Notes under the pieces: model-generated
What the model saw: only the letters and a program-made list of their open reading frames with translations
What the model was told of the DNA's origin: nothing
The model's database searches: none
Position numbers and translations under genes: made by a program
Assembly: GCA_951406725.2 (NCBI GenBank)
Contig: OX597814.1
Coordinates: forward strand, 145,762,001-145,826,000
Source: Octopus vulgaris
Taxonomy: Eukaryota
Reading direction: 5' to 3'
Length of the DNA: 64,000 nt
Shown: positions 11,070 through 47,162 of the stretch, one piece after another
How the letters are laid out: each line of letters begins with the position of its first letter
Position numbering within the stretch: position 1 is the first letter of the stretch

Positions 11070-11520
11070 ATATATATACAGCGTTTTGACAGCAAAAATT
11101 AAAATGGATTTTTTGTACATCTCAAAACGCTGTATATATATGAATGGTGCCATTCATACCATGGGCTCCAAGAGAGCGTTTGTCGAAAAGCTTGCTGCGC
11201 ATTTTGTTGGAGATTTAAGTTCCTGGATTTTCCTGAAGAGAAAGCTGCAAAATGGTCTCCTTATTCAATCCGAATTAGGGACTTTGCAGCCTTTGAAACA
11301 TATGTAGAAAATAATAAAAAGGAATTTTGTAAAATCTTCGTTCAGCTCCATTTCTTCCCTCACTAAATATAAAAAACTTCAAATTTCCGCACTAAGGCAC
11401 GGTTTTGAGACCCCATGGTCGTAACCTCAACCATGATTTTTCTGTTGTGATTTTTGCTACCCAGGTATAGGTTATAATTTGAATAATCCGTAACAAGATA
11501 ATTCATTTATCCATTTCAAT
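11070..11520 (+). mobile_element. Solo pseudo-LTR of a sister subfamily of the intact PLE at 43-47 kb, with a small 5' fold-back
   Basis: Colinear with the reverse complement of 42991-43370 (catgggctc, CTGAAGAgaaag, cgttcagctccatttctt, gcacggtt, gatttttgctac..aggtat.ggtta); 19-bp inverted repeat at 11070-11140. Confidence 0.85.
11227..11312 (+). ncRNA. Type I hammerhead ribozyme
   Basis: attttc-CTGAAGA-gaaagctgcaaa...tttgcagccttt-GAAA-catatg-TA-gaaaat; all core nucleotides and three stems present. Confidence 0.85.
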
Positions 11521-12469
11521 AAAAAAATATATATATATACTCTAATATCGACACACACATATATATATTCATTATATACACACATGCATATACACACATA
11601 CACATACAAACATACTCACACACTCATACACACCTACACACATGCATATAGATATAAATATAAACCGGGATTTCACCACATGTCATATAAGAAGATATTT
11701 CAAATACACAATTATTAGAATTTGACATGTATGTATTAGTATGATTGTAACACAATACACAAATCCCGGTGAATACATCTAAGCATTGATTCACTAAATG
11801 AGCGCTCAAAAATAATTTTGAAATATGTGAAAAAAGGGAAAATCTGTGAGTGAAATAAATATTCGAAATGAACACATCTCGAATACACCCACAACTTTTA
11901 TCATTATATTCATCCTATCTTAAAGGCATCTCAGTATTTAGTCGTCTGCTCGCCTCATCAAGTCGTGCGGCATACGACAGATTGCTGTAAAGCCACATTA
12001 TAAATCACATCAGGTTAGACAGATTTAAGTATAATATTGCCAAGTTATGCAAAGGGAATGAAGTGGCCCTGTTTTTATGACGTAGTAAAAATGCCTGTGA
12101 ATTGTTTGACATGGAAATACATTGAGAAAAGTTAACATTCAGGGAAACATTTTTACGTATGTATTAAATAAACCCATAGGATGTACATAGAGCATATCTT
12201 AAATGGTGTAGTCGGATCTACAACTAAACAGTATATGAAATACATAAACGGGAAAAATTCACGTAAAAATTACCCATGGCTAAATGTACTTTTATATGTA
12301 TAATTACATTATGTTAACCTTCCAAGGTATCTAAATGTTTTGTTGATTTCCCCATTATATTCAGTTTAAATAAGTTATATTCCACTGAAGCTGTGCTATA
12401 AATAGCAGGCGGCCATGCCCGGTTGTATATAGCGACTAGTAAGCAATATAGATTCGAGTAGTCCCGAAT

Positions 12470-12730
12470 ATTTTCATATCCGCTGTTTCCAGGATGAGCG
12501 GACTAGACGTCGCGAAGAAAAGCGGAGACAGCTCAAGGAAAGTCAGCCATTTTCGCTGATCTCAGTGTAATCGGACATGTGCCTCCAGAATCGGCCTTTT
12601 CAGCCACTAGAAGGTCTGCCAATACCACCAAGACAACCTCTAATGATCAAAGACGACGTCTTCATCTGTCTCAAGACATACTGCCTTAAACAAGTAAGCA
12701 AGTAAGCAGAAAATAATAAATAAATAAGGC
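12470..12730 (+). mobile_element. 3' end of an RTE-clade LINE
   Basis: Translates to ..RTRRREEKRRQLKE..CNRTCASRIGLFSH (RTE C-terminal zinc-finger-like motif); short tandem/A-rich tail. Confidence 0.65.
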
Positions 12731-14378
12731 GTGAACTTGTATATACTACCGAAATTCAAGCCACTGACGTACGGAGAACGATACTAATAAAAAGGCAATC
12801 TTATTATGTATGAAATGCAATATAAATTTCTTAACGCGTAGGCTACATGGGCTTTACTTCTTACATGCACTAAAGCTGAAATCATTGCATAATATTCGTA
12901 TCGTGTGTCATCTAATAGATTTAAAAGTTTGCTGTGATTACTAATTGTAGATACTGTATTAATCTTTTTGAATAATTTATGTAGTTGAGCTAGTAGAAAG
13001 CAAAAAATATTCTGTTATTTACGTACATAATGCGCAATATTTTACAAATAATAACTTGAGAAAAAGATGACATTAACGAATATTTTCACCAAATTATTCT
13101 ACATACAACACGTAATAAAATCATTAACAAGAACCTCACCAGTTTTTCTGGAACTGCCTAATCTAATTCAAATATTATAATGACCACAAGATAAGCTATT
13201 AAAATTACATTGTCATTCATGTAGCGTAAACGTAAGAATGAAATGGAGTATTTGCCTTATTATTCTTTCGTTAATTCATTATTTCATTATTTCGTTATAT
13301 AAAATTGCTATTGTAATTACGCTCGATCATTCAGAAACAGAACCATTCAATATGAAATTTTATTGCTATAACCATGAAACTAATCTTGATTTACTGCTGC
13401 ATTTTTAGACATAAGTCGCACTAGGAAATGTATGAACTATTGAACTAAGAGCTCTTCATTACTTTTCTTTACTAACACCATTGTTTGCAGTTTCCTGCGT
13501 TGCGAGACCATTGTAGTGAATTTCATCACTTAGTCTACTGGTATTTGCACTGTCAGCTGTTGTTTTTTCTACAATCGTTTGTATTTTCTTCCATAAATAT
13601 ATTTTTCCTTTTTTACCCTCTTCCCCATCAATATTTCATTATCATAGTTATCCATACATGAGATGTGATAAAGAAATTTTATCGATTATATATGGTACAT
13701 AAACCCAAACTATATATTAATAATAAACATAGTTGCGCATACAATTTTACCGAGACGCCATCTCATTAAACAATAATGATTAGATGGAGTCTGAAGGGCT
13801 AGGTTCATCTTTTCTTAAACCTATTATTTTGATTATTGTAACTGAATAGAGACAAAGGGAAAGGGAGGTCGTATAAGGAGAGTCGTTTCAGAGAGGATAT
13901 TTGAACGAAAAACAGATAAGAAAGGGAAGTGTGAATGTTGAAAATAGGAAAAAGGACATCGAAGGACAAAACGAAAGTTAAAGTGAGAGGTCAAAGAAAT
14001 ATAATGATATGTTACTTGGTGTGAAAACAACCCTAATACCCCAAGGCCATGAATGTAATTATTTTAATTCTGAAAAAGTTTTTATTGAATTAAGCTGGTT
14101 TATTGGTTAAAAAATTATCGATGCTTCTTTCTATACATTCACGGTAAAATTCGCCCGAAACCATGGGAATATTAGCTTTCAAACCGATTTATGTTAGTAT
14201 ATTATAAATGGTTTAAATTTTCCGAAATATTTAGAAAACAATGTTGTAGACTATGAATTCTTAAACGAAGAAAAGGATATATAATTGTCTCAAGCAAATA
14301 ATGAAAAGGAAACAAAAGGAAACAAAACAATTAATTATAGATGAACATTATATTTCCTATTGAATTTGCAAAAGATAA

Positions 14379-14577
14379 ATATTCTGTTGTGTCTGGGGAG
14401 AGTCATTTTGTTTTTGTGCCTTATAATTTAACACAATCACCGGGAAAATTTCCTTATTTTTATTTTCCTAGGAAAATAGGAAAATAAAATTAAAGAATAA
14501 GTGGAAATCTTATCGGTAAGTGTGTTAAATTATAAGGCACAAAAAGAAAATGACTCTCCCCAGATACAACAGAATAT
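14379..14577. repeat. ~200-bp imperfect palindrome
   Basis: atattctgttgtgtctggggagagtcatttt...aaaatgactctccccagatacaacagaatat arms, centred near ttttcctaggaaaa. Confidence 0.9.
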
Positions 14578-46565: not shown

Positions 46566-46613
46566 TATTGGTATCGGTTAAAGTAGCAGTTTCTTGACGA
46601 AGCGGTATGTATT

Positions 46614-46765
46614 ATGTGAAATAGAAAGATGAATAATCTTGTAGTAGATTAATCAAAAGTTTAACCGATACCTTAGTAGCAAAAATCACAGCAGTAAACA
46701 GCACGGTTGGAGGTACAACCATATGGTGTTGCAACCGTGCGTTGGTGCGGATAATTGAAATTAAA
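46614..46765 (+). repeat. Direct repeat of 42991-43142 (pLTR segment A)
   Basis: One mismatch seen (taatGaaaag vs taatCaaaag); offset 3623 bp. Confidence 0.97.
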
Positions 46766-46767
46766 GC

Positions 46768-47162
46768 ATTTTTCTCGCCCCTTATAAAACATCCAATATT
46801 CCTTAAATAGTCAGAACTTTATTCTCGGTCACAAAGAACACCTACACACCCTCACCCACATGATTGACCGATGCCTGACCCGTTAAATTCTTCAGCCACC
46901 GGTTCTCAACATACACTGATAAACAGTTTCGCCATGGGCTCTTAGGAGCATAGTTCGATTTGTTTTTGCTCCGCCTCTGTTCTGTTTTTGTTTTTCCAAC
47001 GGATTTCCTATTTTCTTCCTGAAGAGAAAGACACAATATGGTCCCATTATTCATTCGGATTTTGGTAATTTGTGCCTTTCGAAACACGTGTAGAATGAAA
47101 TAAAACGATTTCTGTTCAATCTGCGTTCAGCTCCATTTCTTCAATTCACCAATAATGTTTTA
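46768..47162 (-). repeat. Inverted copy of 43139-43534 (pLTR segment B)
   Basis: The 81-aa track ORFs 43214-43459(+) and 46842-47087(-) differ by one residue. Confidence 0.97.
47009..47102 (+). ncRNA. Type I hammerhead ribozyme in the inverted 5' pseudo-LTR
   Basis: tattttcttc-CTGAAGA-gaaagacacaa...ttgtgcctttc-GAAA-cacgtg-TA-gaatgaaata. Confidence 0.87.

What the first reader, a model, noticed from the sequence alone, without database searches (positions are those of the whole stretch)
11227..47102. Hammerhead family with covariation visible across three subfamilies in one window
Seen: five copies (11227+, 24407-, 24574+, 43199-, 47009+) share CTGAwGA / GAAA / GTH cores while their stems change in compensating ways. 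Stem II reads gaaagacacaa:ttgtgcctttc, gaaagctgcaaa:tttgcagccttt and gaagacggcata:tatgcagWcttc. Stem I also differs between copies yet stays paired. Stem III is a self-complementary 8-mer (acacgtgt, acatatgt, acatgtgt). Known: minimal type-I PLE hammerheads with palindromic stem III are thought to cleave as dimers. Unusual here: a long (~55 nt) stem II arm with a conserved C-C-TTATTC..TC.GA.TT apex, and a conserved downstream TTTTGT.AAATC..CGTTC..CTCCATT block, suggesting an extra tertiary contact or protein-binding site.
Basis: partly seen in the sequence, partly recalled or inferred. Interest (0 to 1): 0.72.

Follow-up and report, generated by a model that had tools for sequence, protein, structure and literature searches.

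The report
Long-armed hammerheads of Hydra-clade retrotransposons
These are three insertions of a known type of jumping gene (Penelope-like, Hydra clade) whose tail end carries a predicted self-cutting hammerhead RNA with a side arm about twice as long as in its relatives, followed by a conserved stretch that likely helps end the RNA and set where copying starts; cutting is untested.

Summary
The five hammerhead cores are real but come from three insertions: 24407-/24574+ and 43199-/47009+ are inverted arms of single insertions (94% and 99.7% alike). The latter flank an intact 895-codon RT-GIY-YIG ORF of the Hydra clade. Stem II is 54-55 nt against 10-29 nt in 41 distinct Hydra hammerheads fetched here. 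It stays paired through 5 double changes in 12 outer pairs, and family variants mostly keep or restore pairs. Only two of the four distinct stem III 8-mers are strict palindromes. The downstream block is more conserved than the rest of the 3' end (21/28 vs 49%, p=0.014); the apex is not (p=0.31). No tertiary contact was supported. The block lies between an AAUAAA 4-7 nt after the predicted cut and a recurrent second 3' end about 150 nt inside the main end, so it is more likely a 3'-end or RT-start signal. Other Hydra elements carry twin hairpins at their two ends; this lineage lacks them. The scan has already noted long-armed Hydra hammerheads in this genome and the twin hairpins elsewhere. 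Verdict: new variant of a known kind; cleavage untested.

The parts
11141..11518 (+). Insertion 1 (copy a): 5'-truncated 3' end of the element between TA runs; the 5' boundary is approximate
11220..11324 (+). Hammerhead a: stem I, core 11233-11239, 55-nt stem II 11240-11294 (G10.1.U11.1 closing pair), stem III ACATATGT, predicted cut 11306|11307
11313..11318 (+). AATAAA, 7 nt after the predicted cut (candidate poly(A) signal)
11325..11352 (+). Conserved downstream block (TTTTGT...CGTTC..CTCCATT)
24216..24538 (-). Insertion 2, arm b: runs to the main (distal) 3' end; core 24492-24486, predicted cut 24420|24419, AATAAA 24416-24411, block 24406-24379; stem III privately broken
24541..24716 (+). 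Insertion 2, inverted arm c: core 24587-24593, predicted cut 24659|24660, GATAAA 24663-24668, block 24673-24700; ends at the inner (proximal) 3' end in (CTAT)n(TA)n
42991..43150 (-). Insertion 3: 3' pLTR part (tail with two predicted hairpins) ending at the distal 3' end in (TA)n
43164..43296 (-). Hammerhead d in the 3' UTR: core 43282-43276, 55-nt stem II, ACACGTGT, predicted cut 43209|43208, AATAAA 43202-43197 (the only A[AT]TAAA in the 890-nt 3' UTR), block 43191-43164
43878..46565 (-). Intact Hydra-clade PLE ORF (895 aa from the first ATG; P0001): RT with DKT and YRDD, C-terminal GIY-YIG, Ser-rich linker
46614..46773 (-). Upstream direct pLTR copy (= 42991-43150), 50 nt ahead of the ATG; unit length 3,623 nt
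46769..47162 (+). Insertion 3, inverted arm e (= 43532-43139): hammerhead core 47019-47025, predicted cut 47092|47093, block 47110-47137; ends at the proximal 3' end in (TA)n
43351..43365 (-). GCTC-loop-GAGC mini-hairpin upstream of the hammerhead (also at 11166-11179 in copy a); role unknown

Best explanation
These are the structured 3' ends of a divergent lineage of Hydra-clade Penelope-like retrotransposons, carrying a type I hammerhead that is predicted to cut slowly, as a dimer or with help from the element's protein, and a downstream block that likely serves 3'-end formation and reverse-transcription start rather than ribozyme folding. Shown: the element anatomy (pLTR, ORF, 3' UTR with hammerhead, pLTR, inverted arm, TA targets), a paired 54-55-nt stem II, an AAUAAA just past the cut site, and two recurrent 3' ends about 150 nt apart. 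Inferred: a read-through or circular transcript with an uncut or re-joined hammerhead is the template. The RT-endonuclease nicks both strands of a (TA)n target, starts one cDNA at the distal end and the other at the inner end just after the block, and the two join head-to-head into the inverted pairs seen here. The long arm is likely a tolerated, selected scaffold or protein handle, not a catalytic contact.
For: ORF is Hydra-like (DKT, C-terminal GIY-YIG, (TA)n targets). All HHR cores are intact and no core variant is listed in two family pile-ups. Of 19 listed variants at modelled paired positions, 6 keep, 8 restore, 2 stay unpaired and 3 break a pair; one of the three is matched by a partner variant. 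Stem II folds better than shuffles (z -2.0 to -4.3). Both inverted arms end within about 30 nt after the block. TA-joined loose ends recur at 24363 (12 and 16 contigs) and at 43139/43142 (7, 4 and 1 contigs). In clade relatives the element ends lie 6-11 nt before one of two hairpins (8 junction pairs), so two fixed starts are a clade trait. PAc starts RT at two internal sites, extends both strands, and has a protein-assisted HHR not needed for insertion in vitro (PMC11167929).
Against: No cleavage, expression or 3'-end data were obtained. There are only three independent lineages. The family tables are unphased and partly hidden (13 variant rows; 234 and 251 loose-end rows), and many d-family variants simply match copy a, so they are not independent. 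The clade's twin start hairpin is not found in the window, so the RT-start role of the block rests on position only. The gap from block to inner end differs between families (about 5-15 nt in b/c, about 25 nt in d/e). No tandem sense pair of hammerheads exists in the window for a cis dimer.
Confidence: 0.6

Rival explanations
1. The block is mainly the element's polyadenylation cassette. AAUAAA sits 4-7 nt after the ribozyme cut, partly masked by stem I, with a CA site and U-rich tract in the block. Cutting and polyadenylation would then be alternative fates: mRNA versus template. This is compatible with the best explanation.
For: AATAAA at +7, +4 and +7 in a, b and d; it is the only A[AT]TAAA in each stretch examined, including d's 890-nt 3' UTR. 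In clade loci, A[AT]TAAA lies within 25 nt of the cut in 16 of 40, against 3.9 in shuffles (max 9 of 300) and 7 of 233 upstream UTR windows. The positives fall on several branches.
Against: 24 of 41 clade loci lack it, and several positives are close kin. Only 3 of 25 Hydra rows in File S2 of PMC8557442 have it (9 of 25 with variant hexamers; my count by eye on 20 nt of flank). Copy c has GATAAA, and 15-27% of b-family depth has AGUAAA. A-rich sequence may simply be the partner of a U-rich stem I strand.
Confidence: 0.3
2. One reading: the apex or block makes a tertiary contact, such as a stem I-stem II pseudoknot, that speeds cleavage.
For: Pseudoknots between stems I and II are common in hammerheads (PMC3088659, passages). 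UUAUUC is invariant while its hairpin partner varies, and it is complementary to AAUAA in the stem I bulge (9 bp in copy b, 2% of shuffles).
Against: The same pairing is not unusual in a (24% of shuffles), d (10%) or c (5%). It competes with the apex hairpin and stem I. AUGG:CCAU is not compensated in the b family (AUGC opposite CCAU). One subfamily's loose end suggests a different apex (X5 at 24483).
Confidence: 0.15
3. The arm and block are neutral relics, similar only through recent common descent.
For: Only three lineages; apex not above tail conservation; individual copies carry pair-breaking changes.
Against: The upstream flank is 6 of 34 invariant against 21 of 28 for the block (the flank alignment is uncertain). 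Stem II strands are only 42% invariant yet stay paired. Variants favour pairing.
Confidence: 0.1

Closest known systems
Hammerheads of Hydra-clade PLEs, incl. Hydra-1_Obim (Craig et al. 2021, PMC8557442; abstract, passages, section 11, supplement parts 1-2 and search passages seen)
   Same: Type I HHR in the 3' end or pLTR, 2-bp self-complementary stem III, DKT motif, C-terminal GIY-YIG, (TA)n targets, inverted 5' copy
   Different: Stem II 54-55 nt against at most about 26 nt in File S2 Hydra rows (23 nt in Hydra-1_Obim) and 10-29 nt in 41 fetched relatives. Unit 3.6 kb against generally under 3 kb. Linker CxCx5C absent. Two ends about 150 nt apart against a 55-83-nt hairpin spacing in 40 loci. 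Twin hairpin absent.
Minimal HHRs of metazoan PLEs (Cervera and de la Pena 2014, PMC4209133; parts 1-2 of 4 read. Lunse et al., PMC5785218: not held, seen only as cited in PMC6765202)
   Same: Palindromic stem III; dimer requirement; low in vitro activity; extensive stem covariation within genomes is already described
   Different: Their helix II is 6-8 bp; here it is a 12-bp helix, an asymmetric loop and an apical hairpin, with a long interrupted stem I.
PAc of Anolis carolinensis (Frangieh et al. 2024, PMC11167929; parts 1-2 of 4 read)
   Same: Two internal RT start sites giving a tail; both target strands extended; protein-assisted HHR
   Different: Poseidon clade; tail 30-40 nt; starts lie inside the ORF in an AC-rich stem-loop; short stem II.
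PLE-X1_sMoe / PLE-X1_sTam HHRs of spike mosses (File S2 of PMC8557442)
   Same: PLE hammerheads with a stem II region of about 50 nt, flagged there as non-canonical: a printed precedent for long arms
   Different: EN-lacking Chlamys-related elements targeting 28S rDNA; no sequence likeness seen by eye.
Animal non-LTR retrozymes (PMC7229834, passages; bioRxiv 10.64898/2026.07.22.740005, part 1 of 5)
   Same: Type I HHR, PLE-related, dimer cleavage
   Different: No tandem arrays here; copy d belongs to an autonomous element. Whether the a and b families are autonomous was not determined.

Membership tests
Type I hammerhead ribozyme | CUGANGA, GAAA and NUH core in type I order | tested here: met
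Type I hammerhead ribozyme | Stems I, II and III can form around the core | tested here: met
   the constrained monomer fold lies 1.3-7.1 kcal/mol above the free fold; stem III is only 2 bp as a monomer
Type I hammerhead ribozyme | Match to an Rfam hammerhead model | tested here: inconclusive
   none among the 150 listed of 189 hits; 39 lower-scoring rows not shown
Type I hammerhead ribozyme | Self-cleavage | not testable with these tools
   no assay; only contigs were available
Dimer-type PLE hammerhead | Self-complementary stem III | tested here: met
   a, d, e strict; c through G.U; b broken privately while its family is intact
Canonical type I HHR with loop 1-loop 2 contact | 4-bp stem II with conserved loop 2 contacting the stem I bulge | tested here: not met
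   stem II is 54-55 nt; no supported pairing
Hydra clade of PLEs | Single ORF, RT then C-terminal GIY-YIG, DKT motif, no CCHH, CxxC and CxH near the end | tested here: met
   (SDKT, YRDD, VY..YVG, CNLC, CPH); likeness to Hydra-1_Obim judged by eye; no Pfam hit at E<=0.1
Hydra clade of PLEs | RWK motif | tested here: inconclusive
   RWL in P0001
Hydra clade of PLEs | Linker CxCx5C motif | tested here: not met
   replaced by a Ser-rich stretch with one Cys left (GCRSRNEY); P0001 groups with P0002-4 and P0006 apart from the 40 metagenome ORFs (quick tree)
Hydra clade of PLEs | (TA)n insertion preference and HHR in the pLTR region | tested here: met
Hydra clade of PLEs | Twin GCUC/GAGC bulged hairpins after the two element ends (defined here from relatives; not seen in the papers read) | tested here: not met
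   32 of 37 relatives have it; no hit at the expected places in the window
Non-LTR retrozyme | Non-coding tandem repeats, each with an HHR | tested here: not met
   no tandem sense copies in the window; d lies in a coding element

The most novel reading that the evidence does not exclude
This retrotransposon lineage has rebuilt its RNA end. It lost the twin start hairpins and the linker zinc finger of other Hydra elements and uses a long-armed hammerhead domain instead. The ribozyme overlaps and masks the element's poly(A) signal, so one RNA fold chooses between polyadenylated mRNA and a cut or circular template, and the long arm plus block recruit the reverse transcriptase to the inner start site.
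Probability: 0.2. Interest if true: 0.72.

Novelty: new variant of a known kind. Interest (0 to 1): 0.45.

Why it matters
The role of hammerheads in Penelope-like elements is unresolved: they are slow, and dispensable for insertion in vitro in PAc. This window holds an intact ORF with its own RNA end and two mapped candidate start sites, so an in vitro priming assay is directly buildable. Long arms fall outside short-stem descriptors and gave no listed Rfam match, so such ribozymes are probably undercounted. A poly(A) signal next to the cut site would give the ribozyme a concrete job. The covariation itself is expected, since variable PLE hammerhead stems are already described.

Tried and rejected
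No whole genome is held, so there is no genome-wide alignment or R-scape test. Rfam gave only microsatellite-driven miRNA hits among the listed rows. Repeat finding was dominated by microsatellites. The block pattern had 0 matches in metagenome contigs. No ORF relatives were found in viral contigs. No RNA holder was listed as such in the run search; this says nothing about expression. I first read the ORF as Naiad and rejected that, because the endonuclease is C-terminal. AUGG:CUCCAUU pseudoknot: rejected, not compensated in the b family. Apex-to-AAUAA pairing: weak. Self-hairpin of the block: predicted by RNAalifold with one-sided changes only, -2.8 to -8.2 kcal/mol, and weaker than the stem I extension; left open. 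The block's sub-motifs (TTCGT, CGTTC, GAATTTTGT) are not enriched in 37 clade relatives; CTCCATT-like matches overlap the hairpin's GCTCC, so the block is lineage-specific. GC...GCAC remnants near the window's two ends could be decayed twin hairpins but score at chance. A MAFFT alignment of variable-length hairpins was unusable. Depth profiles from contigs were not used. For one search, three weak descriptor hits (L002:136, L049:654 at 118 nt, L069:1426 at 35 nt) were dropped before counting; the last two lie inside ORFs. 22 of 78 loci had no accepted hammerhead. For one search, rows keyed on TA-only sequence were dropped.
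Full report
Observation. The five cores are present at about the stated places. Self-comparison reduces them to three insertions: copy a; the head-to-head pair b/c (24363-24538 and 24541-24716, 94%); and the inverted repeat d/e (43139-43532 and 46769-47162, 99.7%). A strict hammerhead descriptor gave a mean of 0.02 hits in 50 shuffled windows; in the real window it found copy a and one poor hit. Stem II is 54-55 nt. On the four distinct rows, 5 of 12 outer stem II pairs change on both sides, and 86% of cells pair against 36-48% in slid registers. 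The strands are only 42% invariant among a, b and d. Three lineages are too few for a real covariation test. Stem III is a strict palindrome in a and d/e, self-pairs through G.U in c, and is broken in b.

Context. [quoted passage not shown] This fits the Hydra clade as defined in section 11 of PMC8557442 and resembles Hydra-1_Obim by eye. It lacks the linker CxCx5C. In a quick tree of 45 rows it groups with four database proteins, one named from Argonauta hians, apart from 40 metagenome ORFs. The host is likely an octopod; this is inference from that hit and from earlier unchecked notes. Along the element's strand the order is: inverted arm e, a 160-nt pLTR part, 50 nt, ORF, 3' UTR with hammerhead d, the same pLTR part, (TA)n. 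The unit is 3,623 nt. Homology among a, b and d covers about 300 nt from stem I to the 3' end (156 of 299 columns invariant) and includes two further predicted hairpins.

Family variation. Contigs of four public runs were laid on d and on b; 600-1,945 records were laid per run, so both families are abundant. No variant was listed in the catalytic core, though 13 b rows were hidden. Of 19 listed variants at modelled paired positions, 6 keep, 8 restore, 2 leave unpaired and 3 break a pair. One break (U to C) has a partner variant (A to G) that is more frequent in all four runs. Many d variants match copy a, so they are shared ancestry rather than independent events, and the tables are unphased. 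The window copies are individually worn; the b family has an intact stem III. TA-joined loose ends recur at 24363 (12 and 16 contigs), 24374 (7), 43139 (7), 43142 (4 and 1) and 43159 (4); only 24 rows of 258 and of 275 were shown. These match where arms c and e end, about 150 nt inside the main end.

Comparators. A profile search gave 78 metagenome loci with related ORFs. 56 had an accepted hammerhead, 41 of them distinct, with stem II of 10-29 nt. File S2 of PMC8557442 lists at most about 26 nt for Hydra elements but about 50 nt for two spike-moss PLE-X elements, so long arms have a printed precedent in another PLE group. None of the comparators is a close relative. In these loci I found a bulged hairpin, GCUC-Y...R-UH-GAGC-AC, 33-57 nt after the cut in 32 of 37 distinct loci with enough sequence (shuffles 0.22; 19 of 1,099 other 100-nt windows). 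It is usually doubled at a spacing of 55-83 nt (40 loci), with a C-G/U-A covarying pair (57 and 30 of 90 rows; 58 and 33 of 102). Element ends fall 6-11 nt before one or the other hairpin in 8 junction pairs. It is also visible in the published Hydra-2_Amil consensus. An earlier unchecked note of this scan reported the same hairpins (e1-10309281); I saw it. A covariance model of the hairpin found nothing at the expected places in this window.

The apex and the block. The block is the best-conserved non-core part: 21 of 28 invariant, above all 139 tail windows, p=0.014. The apex (11 of 17) is not above the tail. The tail is itself probably constrained, so this is not a neutral yardstick; the upstream flank is 6 of 34 but aligns poorly. 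The block's motifs are not clade-wide. Its 5' part can extend stem I, but in a different register in each lineage, so pairing does not explain its sequence conservation. No tertiary pairing held up. What stands out is position. The block follows an AATAAA 4-7 nt after the cut in all three lineages and precedes the inner 3' end. A[AT]TAAA follows the cut in 16 of 40 relatives against 3.9 expected. Against this, 24 of 41 lack it, some positives are kin, and by eye only 3 of 25 Hydra rows in File S2 have it.

Mechanism. Shown: anatomy, paired long arm, hexamer, two ends. Inferred, by analogy with PAc, which starts RT at two internal sites, extends both target strands and has a protein-assisted hammerhead: a read-through or circular RNA is copied from both nicked strands of a TA run, one cDNA from each start, and the two fuse head-to-head. 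Every copy spans the cut site intact, so the template was uncut or re-joined. The hammerhead likely cuts slowly as a dimer or with protein (PMC4209133). The block likely acts in 3'-end formation or RT initiation. The arm is likely a scaffold or handle.

Novelty. PLE hammerheads, dimer cleavage and variable stems are known. Eight literature searches gave no paper, among those I opened, describing a long-armed Hydra hammerhead, the twin hairpin or a poly(A) signal at the cut. The library lacks most subscription papers, and several supplements were not read. The scan has noted long-armed Hydra hammerheads repeatedly in this genome. Verdict: new variant of a known kind, interest 0.45.

Noticed in passing
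L001-L078, 33-57 nt and about 90-135 nt after the hammerhead cut (e.g. L039:111-128 and 168-185): Twin bulged hairpin GCUC-Y...R-UH-GAGC-AC in most Hydra-clade relatives. Element 3' ends lie 6-11 nt before one or the other, often at a UAUA-like stretch; candidate RT start signal. Absent from this window's lineage.
   Followed up: yes
window 11313-11318, 24416-24411, 43202-43197; 17 of 41 loci: A[AT]TAAA immediately after the predicted hammerhead cut; candidate poly(A) signal partly paired in stem I.
   Followed up: partly
window 43878-46565, residues about 640-780 of P0001: The Hydra linker CxCx5C is replaced by a long Ser-rich stretch with one Cys left. A second insertion near residue 485-560 is shared with P0004 and P0006.
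   Followed up: partly
window 11166-11179 (+) and 43365-43351 (-): GCTC-4/5 nt-GAGC mini-hairpin upstream of the hammerhead in a and d, with a related stretch in b-family loose ends; resembles the clade hairpin but lies on the wrong side and lacks the bulge.
   Followed up: partly
window 24227-24250 (-), 11478-11501 (+), 43004-43027 (-), approximate: Terminal hairpin with an A/C-rich 6-nt loop just before the distal end; two double changes among three lineages. A near-palindromic UAC..GUA stretch lies just upstream.
   Followed up: partly
loose ends at 24437/24456 and 24483: Subfamilies of the b family with a different 3' strand of the arm (still pairing with UUUAUUCC) or a different apex.
   Followed up: no
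window 6205-7457 (+): A second, frameshifted PLE ORF (RT plus GIY-YIG, Pfam PF01541 E=0.002), Neptune-like by eye; no hammerhead found by the strict scan.
   Followed up: no
window 5255-6105: IS630/Tc1-mariner-like fragment with short terminal inverted repeats in TA runs (label recalled from motifs, no call).
   Followed up: no
window 10727-10960 and 11068-11141: About 44-nt tandem repeat and a 70-nt palindrome directly upstream of copy a; relation to the element unclear.
   Followed up: no
window 27111-27476 (+): Fragment resembling the RT thumb of a non-LTR retrotransposon (recalled, no Pfam hit).
   Followed up: no
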